Part shown: positions 1 through 57,669 of the stretch, piece after piece
How the letters are laid out: each line of letters opens with the position of its first letter
Position numbering within the stretch: position 1 is the stretch's first letter
Origin: Octopus sinensis
Taxonomy: Eukaryota
Direction: 5' to 3'
DNA: 64,000 nt
NCBI RefSeq assembly: GCF_006345805.1
Contig: NW_021832548.1
Coordinates: forward strand, 1-64,000
The notes under the pieces: generated by a model
The model's database searches: none
The model's input: only the letters and a program-made list of their open reading frames with translations
Told to the model about the DNA's origin: nothing
Made by a program: the position numbers and the translations under genes

Positions 1-59
1 TTTTCAATTTTTATCAAAACATAATCTTTCCAGCACTTTATTCACGTGGTCTAAACGCC

Positions 60-1900
60 ATAACGGCACATTCCGTTGGCGTAAAACACGTGTTAACGAG
101 TTTCCTAGCAAGGGTGGGGTGCTGGTCCATTTCAACCAGTTCGAAAGCTTTTGACAAGGTTGACCATCGGTATCCGGTGTTGTCCTCACAGCATTTGGGG
201 TCGGCCCCGTCTTTAGAGGGTGGATCATTGCTTTATACAGTAACATTGACTCCATCGTTCGGGCGAACGGGTTCTTCTTGAAGCCGTTCAACATCAAGCA
301 CTCTGTTCGTCAAGGTGTCCTCTCTCCCCACTTCTGTATGTATTGGCTCGAGAGTTCTTGCTGCGGAAGTTGGAGAGATTAAAGTGCGTCCCACGAGATC
401 TAGTTGCAGTGGGAAGGTTTTTCGGCGTATGCGAATGACATCACCATCATAGTGTCCGAAATGGTACACCTACAGAGGGTAGGCAACGCCATTAAAGGCT
501 ATGAGGCAGGAGCAAAGTTAACTGGAATAAGTCAGTCGGCTTGCAACTCGGCACCTGGCAAGGCAAGACGATACCTCCCAATAACGTCGTAGGGCGTTGG
601 ACGGAGGGGCTGGTTAAATGCTAGGGGTTTAGTTTTGTCCAGATCTCCAGATAAGAAGGAGCGAGGTGACGAGCAGGTGATCCAGCTAACTCAGTTAGGT
701 CTGAGTGGCGGCTTTAGGGTCGCAGTTGTGTTTATCGCTTCTGTGATTACCTACCACCTAACCGTCGTGCCTTGCCCCCCGTTCGTGGCTGATCAATTTA
801 GAGGGGCTGCTCTTTTCCGTTTTTTTTTTGTGGAGTCGAAGTCCTCTTGTAAAGCGCTCTGTCTGCTGCCAGCACCTGCTAAATGGTGGGCAAGGGATGT
901 CTTGGCTGTTGATGCGCAGACGTGCGCTGATGCTGAGGAATCTGTGTCTCTACCTGGATAGTGAACAGGTGTGGTCTCCGTCCGGTCGGTTGTTATTTAC
1001 TAACTTACTAGTTTGGGTGAACTAGGACCTTGGGTCAGTGTAGACGAAAGTTGAGTGCTTGGCACGAAGTGTTGTGAAGCACTCAAGCTTCTCTGTCACA
1101 TGGGCAACGCCAGCGGAGGGGGTTCCACCTCGTATTTTTATTGAGGGTTGGTTGAGGTTCAGTGTGACGACGATGTTGGGGAAGACTAGGCTTTGATGAT
1201 GGCCAACTGGCCTGCCTGTTCCGAGGACATTTGGGCCAGGACCCCTGGATAACTTCCCAAAGATTCCCGCCTGGCAGGGTTATTGAGGAGCCTTACCAAT
1301 TCGCGATAAACTCGCAAAGCATGGCGCACCTTGCGCACTCCGCGCGCCCAAGATGCGAGCAGGACAGGGAAACTGTTCTGCACGCGATTGTGCAATGACC
1401 CAAAATTTCCGAAATGTGGGTTTACCTTGTAAACCAGCTGCTGACAAGCTGGGAAGAGTACAACTGTCTTTCGAGTCGATTATATAGATTGTTCCTGCTT
1501 CCTCTTTTAAACAAGAAGGCATGGCTCGTTTTCTCATTGTGGTCGCTATACCGAAAGAAGTAGTATGGAAGACCCACGTGAAAAGAATCGTGAGAGGCAT
1601 CTTCATCTCCAGCCTTGACTGGTTAATTTCCTCATCTAATACCATCTTAAGAGAAAAATAAGGGTGGAGATAAAATGCCTGTCACCTGAATGTATACGGA
1701 AAACGATGGAAGGTTGTAGCGAGTTTGTTGAGAATGAAGAATCCGCATAGTATATCAATAAGATTATACAAAAAGGTTACAATGGTGGCATGGGGCTTGC
1801 GGGGTCGAAGCAAACCCGTCCCCACTTCATTGTATGGTTATTGTTTGGTATCATCCTATTTATAAAAATTCTTAACGTAAATTTTTAACTATTCATCTAT
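60..1900 (+). mobile_element. Tx1/L1-clade LINE, degenerate ORF2 3' half (RT to C-terminal zinc knuckle)
   Basis: SKAFDKVDH, SVRQGCPLSP and AYANDIT (YADD-like) motifs plus a CPRC..ETVLHA knuckle; many frameshifts. Confidence 0.85.
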
Positions 1901-1916
1901 TCTAAAACATCATTTT

Positions 1917-3170
1917 TTAATCCACTCCTCCCTCATTTGTATCGTCCCCTCTATGTTTGGCCCCTGTGGGCAATAAATAGTCGTTCTTGTTCTTTGAGTT
2001 GCTGCTGGTGACTGCAGGAGGATGGTGGGACAGCGTAGGCAGGGTGGGATTAGGGTAAGAATTCACATTTTCGCCTTGATGTCTCTTCTTTTTCTTTCCC
2101 CATTCTTCAGTTTCTTTGGTGCCGTATTCCATCCATGTTTCTCTTCTGCCACCTGATTATCTCTCCTCCTTCTCCAGTTTCTTTTTTGCTCACACATGAC
2201 ATCGCAAGCGGTGGGGTGCGGTTTCTTTCGTTGGTTCCTTGCGCCAGGTGGAGTGTATCCTGTTTTATGTGCATTTTGACCGCATTTAAAGCACAGTGAG
2301 TCCTGCTCTCCACTAAGACTCTCAGCTTTATATCCTCTCCAAATGTGATGGTTTCTAAACCATCTTCTCTGAATCTCCCCGGCGGCCTGGACTATCATTT
2401 CCAGTGCCAATTTCTTTGTGGTACACTTTTGGCCTGGAAGCTCACAATCTTATCTCTGCCATTTCCAACGGGATGGCAGCAACCAGCCAGGCTACACCCC
2501 CACCTAAGGAGGGATCTCTCTCTTCTATACCCTTACCCAGAAGCACGCCTTTCGCAGTAAATGGTTAGAAAGACCACTTCACCCGTTTTGAAGGGAGTCA
2601 CGCCATGCTACCTGGCTCAAGCCTTCGACGCAAAACGCACCTACCCCGTTGCATATCTTCTGCTTCTGGCAAGTTAATTCACTTCCTTCCATATTCACTT
2701 CCTTCACTCCTCTATGCCTTTTCAACCTGTGTTGTGGTGTGCGACCGTGTGTTCGCTGCAATTACAAACCGTAAGTTCTGCACAGTACGTTCTTCTTTTA
2801 ACTCGTTCCCTTCCCTTCACTGGAAAGGGACACATTTACATCGTTCCCCTCAATTTCAAAGATTTCCTTGAATTGATTCAATTCTTCCAAGCATACGTCC
2901 TCACATTTATCTTAACCCGCCTTGAGTTCTCTTGGCCTCCATCGCCTCGTCAATCTTTTTCCAACTTTTAACAAGATCCTCCTCGGACGACAAGTCTGAG
3001 GATCTAACCTTTTCAGTTCTCGATCTCCATTACCGCGCGCCTCCCCTTTCAAAAAAGGAGGAAAGCGTCAACAAAGCCGCCTGAGGCAGCAAAACGATGT
3101 GCCGTTGGACACAAACAGTCAAACACAGTGAAACCAATTCAAATCACAGAAAATCAAGATGTTAACTAGC
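1917..3170 (-). mobile_element. Tx1/L1-clade LINE ORF1 and 5' region, degenerate
   Basis: CFKCGQNAHK zinc-knuckle remnant and a basic C-terminal tail; mirrored at 54290-55530. Confidence 0.7.
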
Positions 3171-4039
3171 CTGCAAATGAAATAACAACTCTGCTACTAC
3201 TGACTGACCAAACAACAAATGATTGATGACTTTATAGTGGCTGAGTCATACCACTTTGCCACGTGGGACGGGATGCACCATTTCTCTACGACTGTGTGTA
3301 TAGTGTGTGCGTGCGTGTATGCATGTGTGTGTGCGTGTGCGTGCGTTCCTGTGTGCATACGTGTGTACGTGCAAGCGTGCATGTGTATGTATGTATTTAT
3401 AAGAGAAAGTCCGCTTTTCCGTGCTGTACGGACCTTTTCACTACAATTTCCGCCATAAGGAGGACTTTATGCAAACCATGTCATATAGAGTGCATTTAAA
3501 GAATGCAGCTTCTTATATCAACTAAATGTCTCCAGAATCTTAAAAACAAATATATAAATTTGGTTAATCGAAATGATATACCTGTCAAGGATAAATATAA
3601 TTGTTAATATAACCGTCAGTGGATGTACAAATTTACTGGAAGGTGTAACTTAACCAGAAATATTGCTTCAGGAACGTTAAGGAACAAGAATATATAAAGA
3701 CGTTAAGGAAGATAACACAAAGAAAATTTGTTTACCTGTTATGTTGGTGAGTTGTAGAGTGCGTGATATCCTGTGTACAGAACATGAGACGCTTGAGTTA
3801 CCAATGTCCCCCTCTCTTATAAGGATTTTCTTAATTGACACTGCTGGAGATAAACACTTTCCATAAGGTCGAACATGCACTTGACTAACATTTATCCACA
3901 TCTGGTGATTTGTCTCATGACTCCATAAAAAGTCAGTAGCGCCAAAAGTGCACCGATGTATGCTGAACATCTGAAGATCGCTAACTTGTTTTACTTCAGC
4001 GGCGGGTTAAGAAATTCAGTTTCTTAATGAAAGATCTCA
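3150..4039 (-). pseudogene. DEG/ENaC/ASIC-like exon relics, left-arm copy
   Basis: Pyrimidine-rich acceptor at 4040-4041. Translation FGATDF...VRPYGKCLS...; PPYGGNC near 3450. Frameshifted relative to the right-arm copy. Confidence 0.6.
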
Positions 4040-4069
4040 CTGAAAAGAAAAAAAACAAAAACGAGTAGG

Positions 4070-4230
4070 CCAGGGAGTGGCTGTGTGGTAAGTAGCTTGC
4101 TAACCAACCCCATGGTTCGGGGTTCAGTCCCACTGCGTGGCATCTTTGGCAAGTGTCTTCTGCTATAGCCCCCGGCCGACTAATGCCTTGTGAGTGGATT
4201 GGTAGACGGAACTGAAAGAAGCCTGTCGTA

Positions 4231-4297
<67 letters not shown>

Positions 4298-4500
4298 GTG
4301 TGTTTTGGTCCCCCTATCATTGCTTGACAACCGATGCTGGTTTGGGTTTACGTCCCCATCACTTAGCGTTTCGGCAAAATAGACCGATAGAATAGGTACT
4401 GGGTTTACAAAGAATAAGTCCCGGGGTCGATTTGCTCGACTAAAGGCGGTGCTCCAGCATGGCCGCAGTCAAATGACTGAAATAAGTAAAAGAGAGAAAA
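4070..4500 (+). mobile_element. tRNA-derived SINE
   Basis: A-box-like TGGCTGTGTGGT, B-box-like GGTTCAGTCCC, internal microsatellite and a tail shared with many copies in the window. Confidence 0.85.
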
Positions 4501-4509
4501 GAAAGAGAG

Positions 4510-4880
4510 GGACTTAAGTGCATGCTGGACGGTACCTACACCAGAATATTACGTGCAGTGCCCAACATTTAATGGAGGGAGAACCCAACAAAACAAAGGT
4601 TATACGGGAATGTATCAACTTTCTCATCAATCATCTTAGAGCGGACGTTGGGTTTTGTTGACCATTGCTGGAGAAGTAAAGAAGAACTTGTTAGTAACGA
4701 GTTTGTTTGTGGCACCAAATCACGGTACCACAGCGACTGGAAGACTACGGAAGACATATATACAACAGCTTGCAGAAGATGTTGGATGCCAATTTGAAGG
4801 CCTAAAAATACTAATGGAAGATCGGGAGTGATGGAGAGAGGTAGTCATGCTGGCCTGGGCAATTGACCTGATTGGATGAA
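4510..4880 (+). mobile_element. RTE-clade LINE 3' end fragment
   Basis: LDGTYTRILRAV...CWRSKEELVS...GR.RKTYIQQL...DR..WREVV C-terminus; mirror at 51930-52300. Confidence 0.75.
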
Positions 4881-5387
4881 ACTTGTGTTCGATAGTGCAA
4901 TAGAAACACGCAATAGAAATAAAAATAATGATAATGGAATTGAATACGTGCAAAAAAAGAACGGAAGTAAAAATAGAACGAGTAAACTGACTCTCTTACA
5001 ACTCTAGGTTCTGAAGATCCTTCATTTGTTAAACATTTGTAGTATGTCGCATCCTCACAAGAGGGAGAAGGTTTCGAGCAGGTAATCACACCTATCTTAC
5101 TTATAGGTGATATAGGTGGAGTACAGTGAAAACCCTTCTCCTGGTTACTATCACAAAATTTCCTGTCTTCAATAGATAATCCATTTGAACAACAACTTCA
5201 CTGTGATTTCGCACGAGAAAAAACTGAATAAAATTTTTTATATCATATCGACATTTTATAGTTAAGAATGTTTTGTGTGCAAAATCAATATTTCTTGAAG
5301 GAAATACATCTGCAATCTCAATAACTGCATAGAAAAAAAAACATAAATCAGAGATAGATGTCATAAAAAATATATAAATGTAACTAT

Positions 5388-5433
5388 GGAAGAAGAAGAA
5401 GAAGAAGAAGAAGAAGAAGAAGAAGAAGAAGAA

Positions 5434-5489
<56 letters not shown>

Positions 5490-5575
5490 AGAAGAGAAAA
5501 AAGAAGAAGAAAGAAGAAGAAGAAGAAGAAGAAGAAGAAGAAGAAGAAGAAGAAGAAGAAGAAGAAGAAGAAGAA
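5388..5575 (+). repeat. Long (GAA)n microsatellite
   Basis: About 190 bp nearly pure GAA tract. Confidence 0.98.
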
Positions 5576-5894
5576 TGACAGAAGTAGGAAAAAGAGAACC
5601 CATAAAAATAACGGTTGTTGTGAATACGGATTACATCTATCCACAAATAAAACTTTGGAGATAGTTTTTGATATTTTGTATTATACTAACATACCCGTGT
5701 CGTCAAAATACCGACAGTTTTATTAATCATAGAAAATAGTTCATCAACACAATGAGAAAAACCTTTGATAGATGTCATCAATCTGGTAAATATGCACATA
5801 AATCTAACCTCTCAGTTGAAAATGACTTGATACATAAGTATGTATTTACGGACACATACACACACACACACACATATATACATATAAATATATG

Positions 5895-5948
<54 letters not shown>

Positions 5949-6175
5949 TATGCATACATTCATACATACATACATGTATATCATATATAGAAAGAGAGAG
6001 ACAGATTTATATATATAGATATATTGGTTGATACATCTATACATTAGTATATATGCATGCATATCTATGCATTTATTTATCGAAATCTTTCTGCCTCTCT
6101 CACTCTCCCTCTCTGTCTCTCTGTCTCTCTCTCTCTCTAGGAGTCACTGTAAGACGCTTACTTCCCCAGCATATA

Positions 6176-7430
6176 CGAGGGGCGCTCAGTAAGTAATGCC
6201 CCTGACCCACTTGCAGTTGTTTGGCCTTGCACTTATTTATGCATCTATAGATAAATGGCGCGAATTACAGCTCTGAACTTATTGTGGTTTCTGATTTACA
6301 GGTGTTTGAATTGAGTCAAGTGTGAAATGGAGCCTGTTGAGTGTCGAGCAGTGATTTGGTTTTTGTATTTGAAAGGACGCACACCACGGGAGACTTTTGA
6401 TGAAATGAACGTAACTTATGGTGATGATGCCCCATCATATGACCTTGTAAAACGCTGGCATTGTGAATTCAAACATAGTCGGAACTCTGTGGAAACAGCT
6501 CCCAGATCTGGTCGCCCCCCCTTCTGCCGTTGATGAGACGTCTGTCCGTCAAGTTGAGGATGCCATTTTGGAAGGTCAACGCATAACTATTTGCCAAATA
6601 GCCCATAAGGTCAAGATTAGTACCCGGTCTGTGGAAACTATCATTCATGACTATTTGCATATGCAAAAGGTGTCTGCCAGATGGATTTCCAGGTTGCTCA
6701 CACCTTTCCAGAAGCAAGAACGCGTTGAGTGCTCGAGGATGAATTTGGAGATGTGCCAAGAAGATGAGTCAAAATTTTTCAAAAGACTGATCACACAGGA
6801 TAAAACCTGGGTCAATCACTATGATCCAGAGACCAAAGCCCAGTCAATGCAGTGAAAGCACCGTGACTCACCTCCTCCAAAGGAGGCAAGGGGCAGCCAT
6901 CCGCTGACAAAGTTATGCTCACAGTCTTCTAGAACCAGGACGGAGTAGTGATGACAGATTTCCTGGCAAAGGGTACCACAATTACAGGAGCCTATTATGC
7001 TTCACTTTTGAGAAAATTAAGAGAAGCTATCAAAATCAAGAGGCGGGGCAAGATCAGCAAAGGCACCCTCCTCCTGCAGGACAACGCTCCGGTCCACAAC
7101 TCGCGTGTCGCCAGATCAGAAGCACAGGCGTGCAGCTATGAACTCCTCCCCTTGCACCCTCTGATTTTCACCTCTTCCCAGCCATGAAGTTGATTTTGAA
7201 AGGAAAGCGTTTCCCAGAAGATGCAGCCTTGATTTCTGAAGTCACGTCGTGGTTGGAGGACCAAGCTGGGGTCTTCTATAAAAACGGTCTCCAGAGATGT
7301 ATCAAACGATGGGAGAAATGCATAACTCTGGTTAGTTCCTATGTAGGAAAAGCCTAATAACTGTGCCAAGTGTCGTTGCTCTACTGCTATGGGAAGTGGG
7401 TCAGGGGCATTACTTATTGAACGCCCCTCG
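6176..7430 (+). mobile_element. Mariner (DD34D) DNA transposon, full length, defective
   Basis: TIRs CGAGGGGCG(C/T)TCA(G/A)TAAGTAATGCCCCTGACCCACTT with a TA duplication. Motifs ITQDKTWV, LLQDNAPVH and (DLAP)SDFHLF; frameshift and stop codons. Confidence 0.95.
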
Positions 7431-8524
7431 TAGCTGGGAAGCAAGTGTCTTAAATATTAGAATTTTTATCATTTGCCTTTTCTGAGCAGCCCTACAACAT
7501 GATAGAGGAAAGGGTAGTACAAATGCACATAGAGACAAAATATAAAAAAAAATTTAAATATTTTTATCAAATAATCTTGTTGTTAAAATAATTTATTCAA
7601 AATGGACTTTAAAAAGGCCACACTACAAAAAGTTAAGCAAAAAAATTCATTTTTTATAAAAGTAATTTATACTAAAGAAAATAAATAGAACACTTTGTAT
7701 TGATTTGTGTTTGTCGTTTATCTTTTGTTGTGTGTGCAACTAAGAAATAGTTTAGTTCATACATGTCTAGTCCCTTTAATATCACGCAAAAATTGATACA
7801 AATTTAAGAATTAAAATTAATAACTTTTTTCTAATGGATAACATTTTACGAAACCTTTACCAATATATTCTTTTAACATTTCCTTTCATATTAATATCAA
7901 TATAATAATTATTGATCAAAATTAAAAGAATGGTGTGGATTCAAAATGCCAATGTCGGGCTTTATTACCCGTCAGTCAACCAGTTTGGTCTATACGCTTT
8001 TTCTCTTTTGTTCTACTGCACCAGACTTTAAGTATTTTATGTCTAAATGTAGCTTATCACTAGTCAAACATAATTTTTAAAAACTAAATTTGATTTGGAT
8101 TAAAACTGAATTAGTGAGACTACTTGGAAGACGCCAACTGCAACAAAAAGCTACGTTAAGAATATTATTCAACTACTACCGTAGTGTACACATTTTTTAT
8201 GTGTATATACAAGTTCGAAAGAACATATGATGATATATGCTAAATTTTATAGGGTCTACAAGAAACATTCATATATGCAAAATTGTTCAAATTATATATA
8301 ATTATATATAATAATTGTTCTAATTTATTTATTCGTACTAATATAAACTTTAGTCTTAGTAAATAAGAAAGTAACACAAATTTACTTGGTTTATCAGAGG
8401 AGAATAGCATCATAAATCAATGTTTATTATATATTGATTGAAATGGTTCTTTTCTTGGTTTGATTTATAATAATATATTTGTACATTATTTAAGGAATAT
8501 TAAAACATATTTTCGCTGGTCTCC

Positions 8525-9480
8525 ATGGAGAAATTACCGATTCACTTATCTTTACAAGACTTTCCTATTCCACCTAGAAAGGATTTCATGAAGGATCTGA
8601 TTAATAAGACATTTGAATTCATTCATAGAATCCGTAGGGTGGCTTTTTACCATGAAAAGGATTTTATAACAGAAAATAACCCTCATAAAGAAGTTACTGA
8701 ACTTTTAAAAAGAACTTTCAGACGAAGAAATTTCCACCACCATACCACCATTTGGAGGCTTTTGAAGACGATTTATGGAATATTGTCAAGACTATTAAAT
8801 TTGTTAAATATTCCCTCTGAGAAATTGAACATTTAAAGAAACTAAATTCTCTACTATGTGATCTTAAAAGAAAAAAATGGAATTATGGAGCAATGAAACT
8901 TATATGATTAGGATCTATTAAAATATCATGAATAAATGAAGAAAGAGATTACTAGTAATTATAAAGTAGTAAGTAAAAAGTTTTAAGGTTCATTAACTTA
9001 GATGCTAAGAAAATTATGAATGACAAGGACATTGGTGATAGAACAGAGACTTTTGTATCTATGAGGCCTAGGATAACTTTAAAAGATCACAAGGAAAACA
9101 ATTTTTTTAATTCTGAAGTGAGAATAATTTTCCCAGGCCGATCTGACCTGAGTACATTAAGTAAAGATTTTCTTGATATGTGTATACTTAAGAAAAACAT
9201 ATAGTCAAGAAAAACATAAAACTTGAACTTTTGTCTAATACACAGGAAACTATTTATTGTTTGCTAGACTGGATAATAAAAATAGAAGTAAATTTATACA
9301 GATATATATTAATAACTATTATTCTTCTATTAATCCTGTTGTGCTTAATAATGCTTTTCATCTGCTAGAAAAAAATCTAACGTTATTTTAAAGAAATTAA
9401 AGTAAGTTTGGGAGTTCAAAAATCTATTATTTTAGTTGATAATAAGTCCTGGGCTAGAGAAAGTAGCAATGATTATTTGA
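8525..9480 (+). mobile_element. Penelope-like element, degenerate ORF N-terminus to RT start
   Basis: PIPPRKDFMKDLINKTFEFIHRIR..AF, EAFEDDLW and TLKDHKEN...RII.P motifs typical of Penelope/Poseidon ORFs; mirror at 48600-49560. Confidence 0.75.
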
Positions 9481-9594
9481 CATTACCATGGGATCTGCTG
9501 ATTCTGATCTATACATTCTATTTTATTTTAGTAATAAATTTCCAGATATTAAAGGTGGACTGTATAGAGATGTAATGCTGTTTTTGATTAATAG

Positions 9595-9960
9595 TGACAC
9601 CTTCAGCAAGTGTCTTCTACTATAGCCTCAAGCCGAGCAAAGCCTTGTGAGTGGATTTGGTAGACGGAAACTGAAAGAAGCCTGTTGCAAATATATGTAT
9701 ATATATGTCTATCTATGTATATATGTATATATATATCTGTCTGTGTATGTCTGTGTTTTTCTCCCCATCACCACTTGACAACTGGTGTTGATGTTTTTTA
9801 CATCTCCGTAACTTACGGGTGTGACAAAAGAGACCGATAGAATAAGTACCCAGGCTTAAATTATAAGTAATGGGGTCTATTCCAATCGATTAAATCTCAA
9901 GACGGTGCCCCAGCATGACTGCAGTCTAATGACTGAAATAAGTAAAAGACAAAAGATGAA
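9595..9960 (+). mobile_element. tRNA-derived SINE, 5' truncated
   Basis: Body and tail match the 4070 family; mirror at 48130-48490. Confidence 0.8.
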
Positions 9961-10019
9961 AGATATATATATAATACAGAGAGAGAGAGAGAGAGAGAGA
10001 GATGGATAGATAGATAGAT

Positions 10020-10050
<31 letters not shown>

Positions 10051-10326
10051 TGTTTCTTTATTAGCCACACAGGGCTGCACACAGACGGGACGGATTACAA
10101 AGTAGAGCTGTTCTTTATGGGGGGGGAGAAAAAATGGTGGGGTAGGTTTTCGATCAAAAGGGATCGTAAAAGGGAAAGAAAGAAAAATAACGATCAATAG
10201 GGATCGTGTATCACAGTAATGTCATGATGTAAAGTGTAAGGGGGAAAGTAAATAGGGTTTATCCGTGGAAAGAAAAGCCTTCGGAAAATACCACGGTAAC
10301 CTCGGTCAATAATGTTAAATGTTAAC

Positions 10327-10485
10327 ATTTATAGATAGAGGAAAGGGTAGTACAAATGTCAAACCATACACTTCAGCCTACAAACTTTTGCTAAAATACA
10401 TTCAAATATGCTTAAGTTAAATTCTTCATAATAAGGATGGATTTATGGTTTGACATTTGTACTACCCCTTCCTCTATCTATAAAT
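10327..10485. mobile_element. Short MITE-like foldback with 42 bp TIRs
   Basis: atttatagatagaggaaagggtagtacaaatgtcaaaccata and its reverse complement with 1 mismatch; mirror at ~42830-42990. Confidence 0.75.
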
Positions 10486-10951: not shown

Positions 10952-11042
<91 letters not shown>

Positions 11043-11321: not shown

Positions 11322-11390
<69 letters not shown>

Positions 11391-45217: not shown

Positions 45218-45282
<65 letters not shown>

Positions 45283-48090
45283 AAATAATGGATATGTATG
45301 TATATATCTACATATAAATAAATAAATGAATAAATAAATAGATAAATACCATAGAATACAAATTAAGATAAATACAAAGGTAAACCTAATATATAGTACT
45401 GCTAATATGTATATATCCACATATACATAAATGAATAGATAGATAGATAAATAACATAAAATAAAATGAAAAATATACATTGAAATGAGTACATATATAA
45501 ACTTAGTATACAGGCTACTATTATGTAAATATTTACCTATAGATAAATGAATAAATAAATAGATAAATAACATAAAGTACAAATCAAGATGAGTACAATA
45601 TAGACTAAATATATAAGACTGCTAATATGTATAAAGCCAAATGTAAGTAAATGAATAGATTTATTAATAAATAACATTAGATACAAATTAAGATAAGTAC
45701 AAAGATACACTAAATATACAATATATAAGGCTGCCAAATAAATACCTGCAAAAACCCATATACTCATCCAAAACACACAATGTACATTCAATATAGACTC
45801 TCATTTATTACATATTAGTATTACAGTATCTAAAACCAGGTTCCCGAACTATGATACTCATACACACTCAACAATTTTGGAAATCCCCATGAATATCATA
45901 TTTCTGTGTATATACCAAAATATATATATTCATGCCACAGTGTATTTCCCTTATAAACCAGGACAAAAAAAAACAAGAAACAAAAAACAATCAATACAGA
46001 ACATATATATTTATATATATGTGTAGCTACAAAATTATAAATTTATAAGTTGCCTGTTTCAAATTGTAAAGACTACTAGTATAATCAGATATAGAGGAAA
46101 GTTAAAATATTACTAGTAGAAAAGCTAAGTTCTATTTAAATCTAGAGAAAGTGTACGGTAGTTTATGAATGCAAAAAAAATTTTGCTCATTAATATTATT
46201 AATAATAGGCCTACCAGCTTTGATAATGAAAAAAATTTCTTTAATACATAGAGAGCATTTTTTATTTTTACTATTATATACAGGTGCAGAAGTTAGTATT
46301 TTCCAATTTAATTTAAAATCTAAGTTCTTACTTTTGAGTTCCCAAATATACGTACTTAACCCCGTAGAGTACATCCTATTTTTATTTCTAAAAGTATATC
46401 TATGATAATTAAGTCTCTGTTTCATGCTATTCATAGTTGCTCCGATGTATACCCTACTGCTAAATTGTGTATCCACAGTGCATTGATAAACTACCTCTTT
46501 CTTGAGGCATTGATTACCAAACACACATTGATTTCTGTTTCTGAAATTACAGTTATCAACAGGTTGGGGTAATCTAACATTGGCCAAAATTTCTGTAACA
46601 CTATTCCCATTAATAGTGTTACAATTATTTTACTATCCAATCCCAAATTCAACGAATGATGGGATTTATCATTATTGGCGATATTCCTATCAATAGTAAT
46701 AGTATTATTGTTAGTGTTATCATCTAATACATTAATATTTTTCCTTACAGGTACGGTACCATCATAATTTGCAAGAGGGTTGTTCGCGTTAGCTCCAAAA
46801 GATATATTGTTCCTACGATTATAGAGAGGCAAATTACTATTATCTAAATTCAACTTTCTATCATTATAGAAGTAATCCAGCTTCCTGTTATTAAATGAGA
46901 TGATGGTGGCTAAATTATGTGTAATGCTATATCTTATTCTAACAGTTCCATTGTTAATTAATTGACCAAATTCATTCCTACCCTTAACAAAGTGCCTAAA
47001 TATTACATTGTGCAAAGCTCTAACTATGTCTGTTTTTATCTGCAATGCATATGGGATTATCAGCCATAGTGTATCCTTATCAGTATTAGGGTTGCCTATC
47101 AAATTGTTATTTTTAGTAAAAACCTTGTTCCTCCTCCATCCCATATGTTTACTATCCTTAACATTATCATTGTTATACCTATCATTATCAATATTACCAT
47201 AATTATTGCGTAAATAAACTTTATTATTATCATACCTACCATTAGTTTTAATATGCATATTATTAATATTACTACCATCACTTATGTGCGCTAATTTATT
47301 TAAACTAACGTCAACAGCTCCAAGATTACCAACACCTCTATAATTATCATAATCGTTTTTATATATCCTATTTTTCCTTGTCTTACAGTTATTATTGTTT
47401 GTCCTAAATCTATTGGCGTTGTTCTTAATGGTTCCACCTATATTTGAAGGATTATCCTTGGGTATATACCATATTTTACTTTTGTAGCCTGCTTTCAGCA
47501 AGGCTGTATTATATCTATCACAATGCTTATTAAAAATGTCCCCGTTTGAGGATAGATAAGAGATTCTCTGATTAATGCTACGCACTAGTGATCTTTTAAT
47601 TTGAGGGGGGTGATTGCTAGAACGGTTTATATATACTAAGTTAGAATTGGGTTTAATATAAGGTTCATGTATCCCATTAGTAAGGTTCCAATTGACATCC
47701 AAATAATTGGCAGAATAGTTTTCATTTTCAATAATTGTGGATAGGCCAAAACTTTTAAAATTTTATGTAGTCTTTTTTTCAGTATATCCAGTCTCGATGG
47801 TTGATGATTGATTTAGGTATGTTTCTCCATTTTCTCATTTTGTATTATTAATTTACGGTAATAATTTTACCTTTGCCCACATAATACAGTTGATTTAGGT
47901 ATGTTTCTCCATCTTCTCATTTTGTATTATTAATTTACGGTAATAATTTTACCTTTACCCACATAATACAGTAGATGAATTAATTGCATCGCAATTTTTA
48001 ACATTTATGTATTAGCTTTATTGGGTACTTCTCTAGCAGTATATTGGATATATGTTATCCCATGCAGGGTTGAATTTACAAACCCTATCT

Positions 48091-48095
<5 letters not shown>
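43399..48095 (-). mobile_element. Penelope-like element, 5' truncated, right arm only
   Basis: RT thumb (ANYLDV..., SNHPPQI) and linker at 46491-47790, then GIY-YIG (VYQC...YIGAT) at 46132-46587; ~50 bp inverted repeat (43399 vs 47797); inserted in (TA)n. Confidence 0.9.
43563..43673 (-). ncRNA. Hammerhead ribozyme motif with long stem II loop
   Basis: CTGAAGA-GGCC...GGCC-GAAA-CAGCT-GTC; palindromic stem III ACAGCTGT; stem I is weak. Confidence 0.6.
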
Positions 48096-48130
<35 letters not shown>

Positions 48131-50690
48131 TTCATCTTTTGTCTTTTACTTACTTCAGTCATTAGACTGCAGTCATGCTGGGGCACCGTCATGAGATTTT
48201 AATCGATTGAATATACCCCACTAATTATAATTTAAGCCTGGTACATATTGTATCGGTCTCTTTTGTCACCTCCATCCTAAGTTACGGAGACGTAAACACA
48301 CACACCCAGTTGTCAAGTGGCGATGGGGAGAAATACACCGACATACACACACAGATATATATATACATATATACATAGATACACATATATATACATATAT
48401 ATGCGACAGGCTTCTTTCAGTTTCCGTCTACCAAATCCACTCACAAGGCTTTGCTCGACCTGAGGCTATAGTAGAAGACACTTGCTGAAGGTGTCACTAT
48501 TAATCAAAAACAGCACATCATCTCTATACAGTCCACCTTTAATATCTGGAAATTTATTATTAAATAAAATAGAATGTATAGATCAGAATCAGCAGATCCC
48601 ATGGTAATGTCAAAAACTCATTGCTACTTTTTCTTGCCAAGGACTTATTATCAAATAAAATAAGAGATTTTTGAACTCCCAAACTTACTTTAATTTCTTT
48701 AAAATAAAGTTAGTTTTTTTTCTCTAGCAGATAAAAAGCATTATTAAGCTCAACAGGATTAATAGAAGAATAATAGTTATTAATATATATCTGTATAAAT
48801 TTACTTCTATTTTTATTATCCAGTCTAGCAACCAATAAATAGTTTCCTGTGTATTAGACAAAAGTTCAAGTTTTATGTTTTTCTTGACTATATGTTTTTC
48901 TTAAGTATACACATATCAAGAAAATCTTTACTTAATGTACTCAGGTCAGATAAGCCTGGGAAAATTATTCTCACTTCAGAATAGAAAAAATGTTTTCCTT
49001 GTGATTTTTTAAGTTATCCTAGGCCTCATAGACACAAAAGTCTCTGTTCTATCACCAAGGTCCTTGTCATTCATAATTTTCTTAGCATCTAAGTTAATGA
49101 ACCTTAAAACTTTTTACTTACTACATTATAATTACTAGTAATCTCTTTCTTCATTCATTCATGATATTTTAATAGATCCTAATCATATAAGTTTCATTGC
49201 TCCATAATCTATTTTTTTCTTTTAAGATCACATAGTAAAGAATTTGTTTCTTTAAATGTTCAATTTCCCGGAGGGAATATACAACAAATTTAATATTCTT
49301 GACAATATTCCATAAATCGTCTTCAAAAGCCTCCAAATGGCGGTATGGTGGTGGAAATTTCTTTGTCTCAAAGATCTTTTTAAAAAGTTCAGTATCTTCT
49401 TTATGAGGGTTATTTTCTTTTATAAAATCCTTTTCATGGTAAAAAGCCGCCCAACGGATTCTATGAATCAATTCAAAAGTCTTATTAATCAGATCCTTCA
49501 TGAATCCTTTCTAGGTGGAATAGGAAAGTCTTGTAAAGATAAGTGAATCGGTAATTTCTCCATTGAGACCAGCGAAAATATGTATTAATATTGCTTAAAT
49601 AATATACAAATATATTATTATAAATCAAACTAAGAAAAAGAACCATTTCAATCAATATATAATAAACATTGATTTATGATGCTATTCTCCTCTAATAAAC
49701 CAAGTAAATTTGTGTTACTTTCTTATTTACTAAAACTAAAGTTTATATTAATACGAATAAATAAATTAGAACAATTATTATATATAATTATATAAAATTT
49801 TGAACAATTTTGCATATATGAATGTTTCTTGTAGACCCTATAAAATGTAGCATATATCATCATATGTTCTTTCGAACTTGTATATACACATAAAAACTTA
49901 TGTGTACACTACGGTAGTAGTTGAATAATATTCTTAACGTAGCTTTTTGTTGCAGTTGGCGTCTTCCAAGTAGTCTCACTAATTCACTTTTAATCCAAAT
50001 CAAATTTAGTTTTTAAAAATTATGTTTGACTAGTGATAAGCTACATTTAGACATAAAATACTTAAAGTCTGGTGCAGTAGAACAAAAGAGAAAAAGCGTA
50101 TAGACCAAACTGGTTGACTGACGGGTAATAAAGCCCGACATCGACATTTTGAATCCACACCATTCTTTTAATTTTGAACAAGAATTATTATATTGATATT
50201 AATATGAAAGGAATTGTTAAAGGAATATATTGGTAAAGGTTTCGTAAAATGTTATCCATAGAAAAAAGTTATTATTTTATTCTCTCAATTTGTATCAAAT
50301 TTTGCGTGATATTAAAGGGACTAGACATGTATGAACTAAACTATTTCTTAGTTGCACACACAACCAAAGATAAACGACAGCACAAATCAATACAAAGTGT
50401 TCTATTTATTTTCTTTAGTATAAATTACTTTTTATAAAAAATGAATTTTTTTGCTTAACTTTATGTAGTGTGGCTTTTTAACGTCCATTTTGAATAAATT
50501 ATTTTAACAACAAGATTATTTGATAAAAATATAAAAATATTTTTATATTTTGTCTCTATGATCAGTATTCTATCATGTTGTAGGGCTGTTCAGAAAAGGC
50601 AAATGACAAAAATTCTAATATTTTAAGACACTTGCTTCACAGCTATACGGCTGGGAATTAAGCGTCCTACAGTGACTCCTAGAGAGAGAG

Positions 50691-50735
<45 letters not shown>

Positions 50736-50918
50736 GAGAGAGAAAAGGAGAGAGAGAGAGAGAGAGAATGAGGCAGAATGATGTCGATAAATAAATGCAT
50801 AGATATGCATGCATATATACTAATGTATATGTATCAACCTATATATCTATATATATAAATCTGTCTCTCTCTTTCTATGTATGATATACATGTATGTATG
50901 TAGAATGTATGCATATAT

Positions 50919-50967
<49 letters not shown>

Positions 50968-52869
50968 TATATATATATGTACATATATTTATATGTATAT
51001 ATGTGTGTATGTGAGTGTGTGTGTATGTGTAAGTCCGTGTGTGTGTCCGTAAATACATACTTATGTATCAAGTTATTTTCAATTGAGACGTTAGAACCGT
51101 ATTTAATACTTAAAGAGCCTAACTGAGTGCATGTGCATATATTTACCACATTGATGACATCTATCACAGGTTTTTCCCATTGTGTTGATGAACTATTTTC
51201 TATGATTAATAAAACTGTCAGCATTTTGACGACACAGGTATGTTAGTATAATAATAAATATCAAAAACTAACTGCAAAGTTTATATTGTGGATAGATGTA
51301 ATCCGTATTCACAACAACCGTTATTTTAATTGGTTCTCTTTTCCTACTTCTGTCATTCTTCTTCTTCTTCTTCTTTTCTTCTTCTTCTCTTCTTCTTCTT
51401 CTTCTTCTTCTTCTTCTTCTATAGTTACATTATATATTTTTTATAACATCTATCTCTGATTTATGTTTTTTTTTTTCTATACAGTTATTGAGATTGCAGA
51501 TGTGTTACCTTCAAGCAATATTGATTTTGCAAACAGAACATTCTTAACTATAAAATGTCGGTATGATGTAAAAAATTTTATTCAGTTTTTTCTCGTGCGA
51601 AATCACAGTGAAGTTATTGTTCAAATCGATTATCAAAAAAAGACAGGAATTTTTTTGAGGTAGTAACCAGGAAAAAGGGTTTTGACTGTACTCCACCTAC
51701 ATCCTCTCTAAGTAAGATAGGTGTGATTACCTGCACGAAACGTTATCCCTCTTGTGAGGATGCGACATACTACACATGTTCAACAAATGAAGAATCTTCA
51801 AAATCTAGACTTGTAAGAGGTAAGTTTACTCGTTCTATTTTTACTTCCGTTTCTTTTTTTGCACGTATTCAACTCCATTGTCTTTATTTTTATTTCTATT
51901 GCGTGTTTCTATTGCACTATCGAACACACAGTTTCATCCAATCAGGTCAATTGCCCAGGCCAGCCTGACTACCTCTCTCCATCGCTCCCGATCTTCCATT
52001 AGTGTTTTTAGGCCTTCAACTTGGCATCCAACATCTTCTGCAAGCTGTTGTATATATGTCTTCCGTGGTCTTCCAGTCGCTGTGGTACCGTGATTTGGTG
52101 CCCACAACAACTCGTTACTCACAAGTTCTTCTTTACTTCTCCAGCAATGGTCAGCAAAACCCAACGTACGCTCTTAGATGATTGATGAGAAAGTTGATAC
52201 ATTCCCATATAACCTTTGTTTTGTTGGGTGCTCCCTCCATTAAATGTAGGGCACTGCACGTAACATTCTGGTGTAGGTACCGTCCAGCATGCACTTAAGT
52301 CCCTCTCTTTCTTTTCTCTCTTTTACTTATTTCAGTCATTTGACAGCGGCCATGCTGGAGCACCGCCTTTAGTCGAGCAAATCGACCCCGGAACGTATTC
52401 TTTGTAAGCCCAGTACTTATTCTATCGGTCACTTTTGCCGAACCGCTAAGTGCATGTCTGTATATGCATGCATGAATGTATGTAAATATGTTTGCGTATG
52501 TGAATATATATGTATCTATATTGTGTCCACATATTCATACATGCGCACGCACACACATACATACACGCACACAGACAATATATATAAATGCACACAAATA
52601 CATGCTTATGTGTAAGTAAATATACACGTGTATGAATGTGTCATTCATCTGTTGTGGAGTTATTGCTAGTGACTTGGCCCCACACAGCCTTAGCACTGCT
52701 TACACAGTTAACCACTTCTAAGCAACAGTTCCCAAAGTCCAGGATTAACAATAATTGGAGTGTTGTCAAATGTTTTAGTTTTGTATGAAGATTGTAGTTT
52801 ACATTAGTGAAACTACTCTTTTATTGTGAGGCCCTTTGTTCGAAGATAAGCATATTTCGATTCACTTAA

Positions 52870-53111
52870 CTCTTTTTACTCTTTTACTTGTTTCAGTCAT
52901 TTGACTGCGGCCATGCTGGAGCACCGCATTTCGTCGAGCAAATCGACCCCGGGACTTATTCTTTTTAAGCCAAGTACATATTCTATCGGTATCTTTTGCA
53001 AGACCGCTAAGTGACGGGGACGTAAATAAAACAGCATCGGTTGTCAAGCAATGCTAGGGGGACAAATACCACACACACACACACACACACTCACACACAC
53101 ACACACACACA

Positions 53112-53184
<73 letters not shown>

Positions 53185-53345
53185 GATATACGACAGGCAT
53201 CTTTAAGTTTCCGTCTACCAAATCCACTCACAAGGCATTGGTCGGCCCTTGGATAGAGCAGAAGACACTTGCCCAAGATGCCACGCAGTGGGACCGAACC
53301 CGAACCATGGTGTTGGTTAGCAAGCTACTTACTACACAGCCACTC
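52870..53345 (-). mobile_element. tRNA-derived SINE
   Basis: Full copy of the 4070 family; a partial second copy lies at 52310-52450. Confidence 0.85.
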
Positions 53346-53390
53346 CTTCACCTATTCGTTTTTTTTTGTTTTTTTTTCTTTTCTTTTCAG

Positions 53391-54290
53391 TGAATCTTAC
53401 ATGAAGAAACTTGAATTTCTTAACCCGCCCGCTGAAGTAAACATGTTAGCGATCTTCAGATGTTCAGCATACATCGGTGCACCTTTTGGCGCTACTGACT
53501 TTTTATGGATTCATGAGACAAAACACCACAAATTGATAAATGTGAATAAAGTGCATGTTCGACCTTATGGAAAGTGTTTATCTCCAGCAGTGTCACTTAA
53601 TAAAATCGTTATAAGAGAGGGGGAAATTGGTAACTCAAGCATCTCATGTTCTGTATACAATGTATCACGCACTCTACAGCTCACCAAAATAACAGGTAAA
53701 CAAATTTTCTTTGTGTTATCTTCCTTAACGCGCTTTATATATTCTTGTTCATTAATATCTCCTGAAACAATATTTCTGGTTAAGTTACACCTTCCAGTAA
53801 ATTTGTACATCCACTCACGGTTATATTGACAATTATGTTTATCCTTGACAGGTATATCATTACGATTAACCAAATTTATATATTTGCTTTTTTAAGATTC
53901 TGGAGACATTTAGTTGATATAAGAAGCTGCATCCTTTAAATGCACTCTATATGACATGGTTTGCATAAAGTCCTCCTTATGGCGGAAATTGTAGTGAAAA
54001 GGTCCGTACAGTATGGAAAAAGCGGACTTTCTCTTTATATATACATACACATGCACGAACGCACGTACACACGTACCCACGCAGGGACGCACGCACACGC
54101 ACACACACATGTATACACACATGCACACACTATACACACAATAGTAGAGAAATGGTGCACCCCGTCCCACGTGGCAAAGTGGTATGACTCAGCCACTATA
54201 AAGTCAGCAATCATTTGTTGTTTGGTCAGTCAGTAGTAGCAGAGTTGTTATTTCATTTGCAGGCTAGTTAACATCTTGAATTTTTCTGTG
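53391..54290 (+). pseudogene. DEG/ENaC/ASIC-like exon relics, right-arm copy
   Basis: Strong acceptor at 53389-53390 and 146 open codons to 53829 (ML...C...GAPFGATDF, PYGKCLS). Then HYD*P, PPYGGNC (~53970) and QSCYFIC (~54240). Confidence 0.65.
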
Positions 54291-55530
54291 ATTTGAATTG
54301 TTTTTCACTGTGTTTGACTGTTTTGTGTCCGACAGCACTTCGTTTTGCTGCCTCAGGCGGCTTTGTTGACGCTTTCCTCCTTGTTTGAAAGGGGAGGCAC
54401 GGTAATGGAGCGAGAACTGAAAAGGTTAGCTCTTCAGACTTGTCGTCCGAGGGGGAACTTGTTAAAAGTTTGAAAAGTTTGACGAGGCAATGGAGGCCAA
54501 GAACTCCAGGCGGTGAAAGATAAAAGTGAGGACGTATGCTTAGAAGAATTGAATCAATTCAAGGAAATCTTTGAAATTGAGGGGAACGATGTAAAGGTGT
54601 CCCTTTCCAGTGAGACAACGGAACGAGTTAAAAGAAGAACCGTACTGTGCAGAACTTACAGTTTGTAATTGCAGCGAACAGAGGTCGCAACCACAACACA
54701 GGTTGAAAAGGCATAGAGGAATTGAAGGAAGTGAATATGGAAGGAAGTGAATATGGAAGGAAGTGAATATGGAAGGAAGTGAATTACCTTGCCAAAAGCA
54801 GAAGATAGACACGGAGAGGTGCTTTTTGCGTCGAAGTCTTGGGCCAGGTAGCATTGCGTGACTCCCTTCAAAACGGGTGAAGTGGTCTTTCTAACCATTT
54901 ACCTGGGAAGGCGTGCTTCTGGGGTAAGGGTAGAAGAGATATCTCCTTAGGTGGGTGTAGCCTGGCTGGTGGCCGCCATCCCGTTGGGAATGGCAGATAA
55001 GGTTGTGAGCTTCCAGGCCAAAAGTATACCACAAAGAAATTGGCACTAGAAATGATAATCCAGGCCGCCGTGGGAGATTCAGAGAAGATGGTAGAAACCA
55101 TCACATTTGGAGAGGATATAAAGCTGAGAGTCTTAGTGGAGAGCAGGACTCACTGTTGCTTTAAATGCGGTCAAAAGGGCACATAAAACAGGATACACTC
55201 TACCTGCCGCAAAGGAACCAACGAAAGAAAGCGCACCTCCACCGCTTGCGATGTCATGTGTGAGCAAAAAAGAACCGAAGAAGGAGGAAGATAATCAGGT
55301 GGCAGAGGAGAAACATGGATGGAATACGGCACCAAAGAAACGGAAGAGAGGGAAAAGAAGAAATCAAGGTGAAAATGTGAATTCCTACCCTACTCCCACC
55401 CTGCCCAACGCTGTCCCACCATTCCCCTGCAGTCACCAACAGCAAGTCAAAGAACAAGAACGACTATTTCTTTATTGCCCACAGGGGTTAAACATACAGG
55501 GGACGATATAAATGAGGGAGGAGTGGATAA
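54290..55530 (+). mobile_element. Tx1/L1-clade LINE 5' region and ORF1, degenerate
   Basis: CCFKCGQKGHIK knuckle; mirror of 1917-3170. Confidence 0.72.
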
Positions 55531-55559
55531 AACGAATGATTTTACAAAAGATGAATAGT

Positions 55560-57335
55560 TAAAAATTTACGTTAAGAATTTTTATAAATAGGATGATACC
55601 AAACAATAACCATACAATGAAGTGGAGGACGAGTTTCGCTTCGACCCCGCAAACCCCGTGCCACCATTGTAACCCTTTTGTATAACCTTATTGATATACT
55701 ATGCGGATTCTTCATTCTCAACAAAGTCGCTACAGCTTTCATCGTTTTCCGTATAAATCAGGTGACAGGCATTTTATCTCCACCCTTATTTTTCCCTTAA
55801 GATGGTAGATGAGGAATTAACCAGTCCAAGGCTGGAGATGAAGTTGCCTCTCACGATTCTTTTCACGTGGGTCTTCCATACTACTTCTTTCGGTATAGCG
55901 ACCACAATGAGAAAACGAGCCATGCCTTCTTTGTTAAAAGAGGAAGCAGGAACAATCTATACAATCGACGCGAAAGACAGCTGTACTCCTCCCAGCCGCG
56001 TCAGCGGGTGTTCAAGGTAAACCCACATTTCGGAAATTTTGGGTCATTGTACAATCGCGTGCAGAACAGTTTCCCTGTCCTGCTCGCATCTTGGGCGCGC
56101 GAATTGGTAAGGCTCCTCAGTAACACTGCCAGGCGGAGAATCTTTGGAAGTTATCCAAGGGTCCTGGCCCAAAGTCCTTCGGAACAGACAGGCTAGTTGA
56201 CCATCATCGAAGCCTAGAATCTTCCCCCACATCGTCGTCACACTGAACCTCAACCAACCCTCTATAAAAATACGAGGTGGAACCCCCTCCGCTGGCGTTG
56301 TCCATGTGACAGAGAAGCTTGAGTGCCTCACAACACTTCGCTTGCCAAGCACTCAACTATCGTCTACACTTGACCCAAGGTCCTAGTTCACCCAAACTAG
56401 TAAGCTTAGTAAATAACACACCGACCGAACGGAGACCACACCTGTTCACTATCCAGGTAGAGACACAGATAACTCAGCATCAGCGCACGTCTGCGAATCA
56501 ACAGCCAAGACATCCCTTGCGCACCATTTAGCGGGTGCTGGCAGCAGACAGAGCGCTTTACAAGAGGACTTCTACTCCACAAAAAACGGAAGAGCAGCCC
56601 CTCTAAATTGATCAGCCACGAACGGGGGCAAGGCACGACGGTTAGGCGGTAGGTAATCACAGAAGCGATAAACACAACTGAGACCTCTGCCCTTCCTTTC
56701 AGGGAGAGCCGCTACTCAGACCTCGCTCCAATACTTTATCTGGAGATCTGGACAAAACTAAACCCCTAACATTTTAACCAGCCCCTCCTTCCAACGCCCT
56801 ACAATGTTGTTGGGAGGTATCGTCTTGCCTTGCCAGGTGCCGAGTTGCAAGCCGATTGACTTATTCCAGTTAACTTTTGCTCCTGCCTCATAGCCTTTAA
56901 TAGCGTTGCCTACCCTCTGTAGGTGTACCATTTCGGACACTATGGTGGTGATGTCATTCGCATACGCCGAAACATTCCCACTGCAACCTAGATCTCGTGG
57001 GACGCAGTTTAATCTCTCCAACTTCCGCAGCAAGAACTCTAGAGCCAATACATACAGAAGTGGGGAGAGAGGACACCTTTGACGAACAGAGTGCTTGATG
57101 TTGAACGGCTTCAAGAAGAACCCGTTCGCCCGAACGATGGAGTCAATGTTACTGTATAAAGCAATGATCCACCCTCTAAAGACGGGGCCGACCCCAAATG
57201 CTGTGAGGACCAACACCGGATACCGATGGTCAACCTTGTCAAAAGCTTTCGACTGGTTGAAATGGACCAGCACCCCACCCTTGCTAGGAAACTCGTTAAC
57301 ACGTGTTTTTACGCCAAACGGAATGTGCCGTTTAT
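55560..57335 (-). mobile_element. Tx1/L1-clade LINE ORF2 3' half, degenerate
   Basis: NQSKAFDKVDH, SVRQRCPLSP, AYANDIT; mirror of 60-1900. Confidence 0.87.
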
Positions 57336-57669
57336 GGCGTTAGACCACGTGAATAAAGTGCTGGAAAGATTATGTCTTGATAAAATTGAAAAAGTCGACC
57401 ATATTAAGGCAAATTGCCCCCTTCTCGATAACCAAACACAAATGAGGGTGAGACAGGAGGAAAGCAGTAGCAACGAGAAGCTGAAGGAAGATACAGAGGA
57501 GGAAAATACAGATGAAGTCCAAGAAACACTACGGGAAAAGTCTCCAAGAACTCCCCACCCTCTAAGAACGCTGAAAAAAGAAGACAAAGTAACTGAGTGA
57601 CACACAAACGCCCACACAGCGACTAACACACGAAAATATATACCAGACAGTCCAAATATATACCAATAT

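What the first reader, a model, noticed from the sequence alone, without database searches (positions are those of the whole stretch)
1..57392. Inverted duplication of >16 kb with a 22.7 kb spacer, placing two channel-gene copies head to head
The arms are collinear in reverse complement. I counted 20 mismatches in 246 nt (~8%) in one exon, split 6/5/9 across codon positions, which is close to neutral. Each arm has private insertions: mariner and Helitron on the left, Penelope on the right. The gene relic runs outward in both arms, on minus in the left and plus in the right. The inner left breakpoint falls inside a MITE. This could be a snapshot of birth-and-death evolution by inverted duplication.
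Basis: partly seen in the sequence, partly recalled or inferred. Interest (0 to 1): 0.7.

Follow-up and report, generated by a model that had tools for sequence, protein, structure and literature searches.

The report
Duplicated octopus immunoglobulin-like receptor genes
This stretch of octopus DNA holds two back-to-back copies of an unstudied antibody-fold surface-protein gene, not a channel gene, and the two copies have changed their protein sequence faster than chance, as recognition molecules often do.

Summary
The inverted repeat is real: left arm 1-15850, right arm 38542-57392, spacer 22,691 bp, about 4% substitutions, with private transposons. The count of 20 mismatches in 246 nt (6/5/9) is exact. 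The gene is not a channel. It encodes a signal peptide, a V-type Ig domain, a second Ig domain, a linker and a hydrophobic GPI-signal-like tail. It belongs to an unnamed clustered family whose named relatives are all Octopus. Its divergence is not neutral: 44 amino-acid-changing differences against 17 expected, and 6 silent against 5.7 expected. Each arm matches a different, adjacent O. vulgaris gene model (160 of 164 and 102 of 102 residues), so the arms are paralogues, not mis-joined haplotypes. Six of 7 frameshifts are absent from those models and look like consensus errors, so 'relic' is unproven. The inner left junction also cuts the last intron of an older paralogue and strands its tail exon in the spacer. 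The best reading is a diversifying IgSF recognition-receptor cluster rearranged by an inversion or inverted duplication. The orientation rests on one junction that I could not check with reads. Ligand and tissue are unknown.

The parts
1..15850 (-). Left arm of the inverted repeat; continues beyond the window edge
38542..57392 (+). Right arm of the inverted repeat
15851..38541 (.). Single-copy spacer, 22,691 bp: 3' end of older paralogue X, then LINE, mariner, PIF1-Helitron and GIY-YIG relics
13641..13686 (-). Left copy, signal-peptide coding exon part (open; same 15 residues as right copy)
4993..5324 (-). Left copy, Ig domain 1 (V-type) exon; one 1-nt run-length indel, donor shifted by 1 nt
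   Evidence: 73 of 73 compared residues equal CAI9737732.1
3736..4039 (-). Left copy, Ig domain 2 exon; four 1-nt run-length indels within 75 nt
   Evidence: 87 of 91 compared residues equal CAI9737732.1
39806..39851 (+). Right copy, signal-peptide coding exon part
51485..51819 (+). Right copy, Ig domain 1 (V-type) exon; one frameshift in a T run
53391..53695 (+).
   Evidence: 79 of 79 compared residues equal the first unit of CAI9737731.1
61121..61153 (+). Right copy, linker exon (outside the part mirrored in this window)
62375..62454 (+). Right copy, last coding exon: hydrophobic C-terminal tail with no cytoplasmic part (GPI-signal-like)
15916..16876 (+). Remnant of the last intron of paralogue X, homologous to the right copy's last intron (61508 onward)
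16877..16956 (+). Orphan tail exon of paralogue X; 25 of 26 residues equal the C-terminus of O. vulgaris CAI9737735.1
   Evidence: the O. bimaculoides orthologue carries the same tail
15469..15850 (.). Truncated TIR element (MITE) ending sharply at the inner left junction; holds a TTAGGG-like G-run tract 38 bp from the junction
38456..38930 (.). Complete copy of the same MITE, with both terminal inverted repeats
6176..7430 (+). Left-only mariner element flanked by TA
14312..14704 (-). Left-only non-autonomous Helitron-type element (TC start, hairpin plus CTAG end, between A and T), inside a larger left-only stretch
   Evidence: the terminus rule is recalled knowledge
43398..48095 (-). Right-only Penelope-like stretch in a TA microsatellite
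54784..57392 (-). LINE relic shared by both arms (mirror at 1-2677), in the intron after Ig domain 2
   Evidence: (RVT_1, E 1e-9)

Best explanation
The arms are two true paralogous segments of a tandem cluster of Octopus IgSF genes (signal peptide, V-type Ig, second Ig, linker, hydrophobic tail). Shown: the anatomy, the fold, the paralogy and the excess of amino-acid change. Inferred: (1) The product is a lipid-anchored (GPI-type) surface protein without a signalling tail. It binds ligand through its outer V domain and most likely serves non-self recognition in immunity; neural labelling and gamete recognition are the alternatives. (2) After duplication both copies were functional and were pushed apart by diversifying selection, with patchwork exchange among at least five sister copies. 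(3) The head-to-head layout comes from one rearrangement whose inner junction joins the MITE upstream of the left copy to the last intron of older paralogue X. I favour an inverted copy inserted by template switching. Inversion of part of an existing tandem array fits nearly as well. (4) Most frameshifts in this sequence are consensus errors, but one lesion per copy may be real.
For: Fold: model of the O. bimaculoides relative XP_014786278.1 (pLDDT 78.7) has two beta-sandwiches. Its best matches are Ig proteins: Foldseek top hits, and a TCR V-delta domain at Z 13.0, rmsd 2.0 over 100 residues. Atlas look-alikes are Ig families and unnamed mollusc clusters. Family: 13 proteins at E<=0.001 among 1.84 billion; 9 are named, all Octopus, and 4 are unnamed. 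Accessions are consecutive or nearly so in three species. Paralogy: left = CAI9737732.1 at 160 of 164 residues, right = first unit of CAI9737731.1 at 102 of 102, in an assembly that was purged of haplotigs and has 1.22% heterozygosity (PMC10700109, passages). Selection: 50 substitutions in 600 exon nt against 371 in 9,356 non-coding. Non-synonymous 44 against 17.0 expected (P 3e-8); synonymous 6 against 5.7; no new stop among the 200 codons compared. Variable columns of Ig1 are clumped, 13 in a 16-column window, P 0.01. Junction; orphan exon. Errors: indel-to-substitution ratio 0.37 in the arms; 6 of 7 coding indels lie in stretches that the O. vulgaris models read in frame.
Against: The direct pN versus pS test is weak (Fisher P 0.077; binomial with the non-coding spectrum P 0.03), because there are only 6 silent changes. 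One of three clumping statistics was not significant (P 0.12). No expression, ligand or tissue data were found. No GPI predictor was run, and only 2 of 10 proteins had a C-terminal 19-residue window above KD 1.6. The O. vulgaris models skip exactly the stretches holding the right copy's T-run frameshift and the left copy's donor shift, so these may be real. The left and right copies are not closest relatives in protein distance, and the tree does not resolve the subfamily. Strand and order in other assemblies could not be read. The fold was predicted for a 46%-identical relative, not for the window's own product.
Confidence: 0.62

Rival explanations
1. The paralogues are real, but the inverted orientation is an assembly mis-join made through a truncated MITE copy that already lay in paralogue X's last intron.
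For: The junction lies inside a repeat. X carries its tail exon in the O. vulgaris and O. bimaculoides models. The MITE block diverges somewhat more than the neighbouring upstream blocks (20 of 370 against 12 of 498, P 0.03). The sequence is indel-noisy.
Against: There is no N gap and the junction is sharp. The MITE is not more diverged than the arms overall (P 0.17). The order of O. vulgaris accessions is loosely mirror-like: the two copies flanking the pair are both cut at the same point of Ig2.
Confidence: 0.22
2. Both copies are dead relics decaying neutrally.
For: There are 7 coding indels and one shifted donor in the window. Four of the five close O. vulgaris units are truncated in their gene models. 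No O. sinensis model of this subfamily appeared.
Against: Neutral decay cannot give 44 non-synonymous changes where 17 are expected while silent changes sit at background. Six of 7 indels are not in the orthologous models. The signal exons differ only silently. Recent death of one copy remains possible.
Confidence: 0.08
3. The arms are two haplotypes of one locus joined by the assembler.
For: Octopus assemblies can retain haplotigs (duplicated BUSCO 0.5% in one and 5.2% in another; PMC10700109, passages).
Against: Divergence is 4% non-coding and 8% coding against 1.22% heterozygosity. Both types occur as separate adjacent gene models on one O. vulgaris chromosome. An orphan piece of a third gene sits at the junction.
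Confidence: 0.04
4. The gene is an ion-channel gene, for example with a cyclic-nucleotide-binding domain.
For: A short stretch of the second Ig exon (REGEIG) resembles a motif of cyclic-nucleotide-binding domains (recalled, not from a call).
Against: No channel or cNMP family was hit in 27 read-through frames or in the exon at E<=5. Full-length relatives are about 260-290 residues with no multi-pass membrane region. The fold is Ig.
Confidence: 0.01

Closest known systems
Uncharacterised Octopus gene models: O. vulgaris CAI9737731.1, 32, 34, 35, 36; O. sinensis LOC118766814-816; O. bimaculoides LOC106880707, 708, 709, 713, 715
   Same: Same family and exon plan. The left and right copies match CAI9737732.1 and the first unit of CAI9737731.1, and the orphan exon matches CAI9737735.1.
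   Different: They are named only 'hypothetical', 'uncharacterized' or 'Ig-like domain-containing'. The window differs from the O. vulgaris models at a few residues and at six indels, and its X tail exon is detached from the gene body.
Molluscan VIgL proteins (FREP, CREP, GREP)
   Same: Mollusc IgSF domains that profile libraries miss (PMC9334734, passages), in diversified families. One Atlas structural look-alike cluster is molluscan with Lectin_C (TM 0.45).
   Different: No lectin domain follows the Ig domains. The chain ends in a short hydrophobic tail.
Dpr / ZIG-8 (Wirin family)
   Same: Two Ig domains, probably GPI-anchored, expanded by duplication (PMC10084454, passages).
   Different: No sequence match: the family profile finds 0 of 177,635 PDB sequences at E<=1 and no Pfam Ig family is hit. 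Neural expression is untested, and this family shows fast amino-acid change.
Fold-back inverted duplication with a single-copy spacer (Hermetz et al., PMC3907307)
   Same: Inverted copy plus spacer. The reported spacers of 766-70,466 bp bracket 22.7 kb, and some junctions lie inside repeats (passages).
   Different: Those are de novo human rearrangements with terminal deletion. Here the event is old (4% divergence), microhomology cannot be read from one side of the junction, and inversion of a tandem array is not excluded.

Membership tests
Immunoglobulin superfamily | Ig beta-sandwich fold | tested here: met
   (model of a 46%-identical relative; Z 13.0 to a V domain)
Immunoglobulin superfamily | One domain per exon with phase-1 introns, and paired cysteines | tested here: met
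   exon borders; conserved Cys and Trp; the rule itself is recalled knowledge
Immunoglobulin superfamily | Match to a curated Ig sequence profile | tested here: not met
   no Ig Pfam family at E<=5 for 4 of 4 proteins; such misses are reported for mollusc IgSF domains
Ion channels (CNG/HCN/EAG or other) | Multi-pass membrane or pore domain, or a cNMP-binding domain | tested here: not met
VIgL (FREP/CREP/GREP) | C-terminal fibrinogen, C-type lectin or galectin domain | tested here: not met
   the full-length relatives end shortly after Ig2; no lectin Pfam hit
Wirins (Dpr/DIP/IgLON) | Sequence and phylogenetic kinship with Dpr, ZIG-8 or IgLON | tested here: inconclusive
   no PDB sequence hit at E<=1 and none among 13 relatives; no tree with Wirins was built
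Wirins (Dpr/DIP/IgLON) | Neuronal surface expression and D1-D1 binding | not testable with these tools
   no expression or binding data
GPI-anchored proteins | Signal peptide plus C-terminal hydrophobic tail without a cytoplasmic part | tested here: inconclusive
   a conserved tail is seen in 7 relatives and in the window; hydrophobicity is moderate; no omega-site predictor was run
Fold-back inverted duplication | Single-copy spacer between inverted copies | tested here: met
Fold-back inverted duplication | Inverted microhomology or a hybrid repeat at the junction | not testable with these tools
   needs the unbroken intron of paralogue X, which is not in the window; no eukaryotic DNA collection was available
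Fold-back inverted duplication | The two arms are sister copies | tested here: inconclusive
   4-5 informative sites group left with right, others conflict; tree unresolved

The most novel reading that the evidence does not exclude
An undescribed, octopus-restricted family of V-domain surface receptors forms a diversifying recognition repertoire (immune, self/non-self or gamete). It grows by segmental inverted duplication. The same rearrangement detached the membrane-anchor exon of an older member, which could turn that member into a secreted decoy or leave it spliced across a giant intron holding antisense paralogues.
Probability: 0.25. Interest if true: 0.75.

Novelty: new variant of a known kind. 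Interest (0 to 1): 0.5.

Why it matters
My searches turned up diversified IgSF recognition families for snails (VIgL) and flies (Dpr/DIP) but none for octopus. A small, clustered, Pfam-invisible Ig family under amino-acid-diversifying selection is a concrete candidate that single-cell atlases and binding assays can test at once. The inverted repeat by itself is an ordinary kind of rearrangement. The case also shows that indel-noisy assemblies make live, fast-evolving genes look like relics.

Tried and rejected
Channel identity: rejected. Neutrality read from the 6/5/9 split: rejected, because only 2.5 of 23 differences in that exon are silent. Pfam and a PDB sequence-profile search did not recognise the family. 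A search for short relatives of the Ig2 exon, hoped to give transcript evidence, found 0 of 1 candidate. Rfam found 0 matches in the window. Trees of Ig1, Ig2 and both together did not resolve the subfamily (the 23-residue unit was left out of the Ig1 tree, and only five subfamily units plus two outgroups went into the joint tree). Homopolymer enrichment of 1-bp indels in the arms overall is modest: 75 of 116, against 50% of bases lying in runs. It is therefore weak support for errors on its own. Searches for six LOC ids and six accessions found 0 papers each. Topic searches (listings and abstract starts only) showed no paper on this family. The supplement of an octopus skin-mucus proteome (PMC11431876; listing only) could not be read and might hold expression evidence. 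No complex prediction was run, as there is no candidate partner. Pfam scanning did not cover 24001-38900 in all frames (only selected ORFs) or most of the minus strand of the right half.
Full report
Observation. A self-comparison shows two collinear reverse-complement arms, 1-15850 and 38542-57392, around a 22,691-bp spacer, with no N in the window. Over 16 alignable blocks (10,516 columns; microsatellites and some SINE stretches left out) there are 445 substitutions (4.2%) and 166 indel events, 116 of them single bases. The private insertions are there. The left arm has a TA-flanked mariner at 6176-7430 and a Helitron-type element at 14312-14704. The right arm has a 4.7-kb Penelope-like stretch, the least firmly labelled of the three. 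The inner junction is sharp and lies inside a TIR element that is complete in the right arm and truncated in the left.

The gene is not a channel. Read-through frames of the right arm and beyond hit no channel family (27 frames). The 101-residue open exon at 53392-53694 finds three O. vulgaris hypothetical proteins (3 of 32 candidates). It finds 13 proteins at E<=0.001 among 1.84 billion representatives; 9 of these are named, all from Octopus, and 4 are unnamed. A profile search added only further Octopus members among named hits (9 of 2,170 candidates). With these proteins the right copy maps as a signal exon (39806-39851), domain 1 (51485-51819), domain 2 (53391-53695), a linker (61121-61153) and a tail (62375-62454), joined by phase-1 introns. 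The left copy mirrors the first three exons on the minus strand. The two start codons are 26 kb apart, so a shared promoter is unlikely (inference). A model of the O. bimaculoides relative has two beta-sandwiches. Its structural matches are Ig proteins, the first domain best matching V domains (Z 13.0, rmsd 2.0, 100 residues), and the Atlas agrees. Pfam and PDB sequence profiles miss the family, as reported for other mollusc IgSF domains (PMC9334734, passages). Most full-length members end in a conserved, moderately hydrophobic tail with nothing after it. I read this as a GPI signal; no predictor was run.

Paralogues, not haplotypes. The left copy equals CAI9737732.1 at 160 of 164 compared residues. 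The right copy equals the first unit of CAI9737731.1 at 102 of 102. The two copies differ from each other at 45 of 197. These are adjacent models on one chromosome-scale contig of an assembly that was purged of haplotigs and has 1.22% heterozygosity (PMC10700109, passages). The window is not letter-identical to those models, so they are independent evidence (inference). O. vulgaris has at least five close units, while the nearest O. bimaculoides protein is about 46% identical. The subfamily is therefore young, within the roughly 34 million years since those lineages split.

Not neutral. In 200 comparable codons of the two Ig exons there are 50 substitutions, 44 non-synonymous and 6 synonymous (pN 0.094, pS 0.047). 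Non-coding arm DNA differs at 371 of 9,356 sites (4.0%). That spectrum predicts 17.0 non-synonymous, 5.7 synonymous and 1.1 stop changes. The observed values are 44 (P 3e-8), 6 and 0. The direct pN versus pS test is weaker (P 0.077 and 0.03). The amino-acid differences are largely shared with the O. vulgaris models, so they are not sequencing noise. Variable columns of domain 1 are clumped on two of three statistics (P 0.01, 0.04, 0.12), and informative sites conflict, suggesting exchange among copies. Exchange alone would also raise silent divergence, which is at background, though on only 6 counts.

Relic or error. There are seven coding indels and one shifted donor. All seven can be read as run-length changes, and four fall within 75 nt. 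Six lie in stretches that the O. vulgaris models read in frame, against only four residue differences from those models in the Ig domains. This points to consensus error, as does the arm-wide indel-to-substitution ratio of 0.37. The other two lesions, the right copy's T run and the left copy's donor, fall in stretches that the O. vulgaris models skip. They may be real and shared, so present-day status is open.

The junction breaks a third gene. The spacer begins with the last intron and tail exon of an older paralogue X. The exon at 16877-16956 equals the C-terminus of CAI9737735.1 at 25 of 26 residues. The O. bimaculoides orthologue has the same tail (66% identity overall). Intron homology to the right copy starts 65 bp from the junction. 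No Ig exon of X lies in the window. The rearrangement therefore joined the upstream MITE of the left copy to X's last intron. An inverted copy inserted by template switching fits, and the spacer size is within the 766-70,466 bp range of human fold-back events (PMC3907307, passages). Inversion of part of a tandem array also fits, because left and right are not closest relatives in protein distance. A mis-join through a pre-existing MITE fragment cannot be excluded without reads. A telomere-like G-run tract sits 38 bp from the junction, one of only two such loci in the window, each duplicated. A role in fork stalling is speculation.

How it works, by inference. The product is a lipid-anchored two-Ig surface protein with no signalling tail, so it would capture ligand or signal through a partner. 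Fast change in the outer domain after duplication is what recognition molecules in conflict show. I put immune or non-self recognition at about 0.5, neural labelling of the Dpr kind at 0.15, gamete recognition at 0.15, and other adhesion roles at 0.2. It works like a diversified invertebrate IgSF family but fails the VIgL test (no lectin domain), and it is not shown to be a Wirin (PMC10084454, passages).

Novelty and verdict. Two searches for gene ids and accessions found no paper, and four topic searches listed none on this family (listings only). Subscription papers and one unreadable supplement were not seen. The rearrangement is of a known kind. The family, its selection signal and the detached anchor exon appear undescribed. 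Interest 0.5.

Noticed in passing
window 63252-63308, 17142-17186, 60472-60543, 20435-20497, 63891-64000: Homologues of alternative hydrophilic C-terminal exons of other family members lie near both tail exons (for example 14 of 19 residues to one O. bimaculoides isoform; one has an in-frame stop). The family may make anchored and secreted forms by alternative last exons.
   Followed up: partly
O. bimaculoides LOC106880715 (P0014, P0015, P0020, P0021): RefSeq lists isoforms X1, X2/X3 and X5 under one locus although their Ig domains differ throughout. This could be merged models, or a shared exon spliced to different gene bodies.
   Followed up: no
O. vulgaris CAI9737731.1 and CAI9737736.1 (P0001, P0017): These models fuse several tandem gene copies into one protein, so the cluster is larger than its gene count. 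Two sister units stop at the same point of domain 2.
   Followed up: partly
window 15775-15812 and 38580-38627: TTAGGG-like, G-quadruplex-pattern tract inside the MITE, close to the junction.
   Followed up: partly
window 52310-52452 and 52871-53013 against 4360-4502: The right arm has two SINE pieces with about 420 bp between them where the left arm has one. This could be a deletion between direct repeats on the left.
   Followed up: partly
window 14837-15400 and 38950-39529: Upstream blocks diverge less (12 of 498) than the arms on average; possibly promoter constraint, not tested against the background.
   Followed up: no
window 26113-29400, 30191-30588, 31786-32186: Nest of PIF1-bearing and short Helitron-type elements in the spacer that share ends with the left-arm element.
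   Followed up: partly
window 32382-32638, 34105-34174, 35576-35640: Short near-perfect palindromes in the spacer; two of them flank a GIY-YIG-like ORF at 34244-34801.
   Followed up: no
window 7431-9590 and 48500-50645: An older AT-rich relic shared by both arms, resembling the start of a Penelope-like ORF by recall only; no Pfam hit.
   Followed up: no
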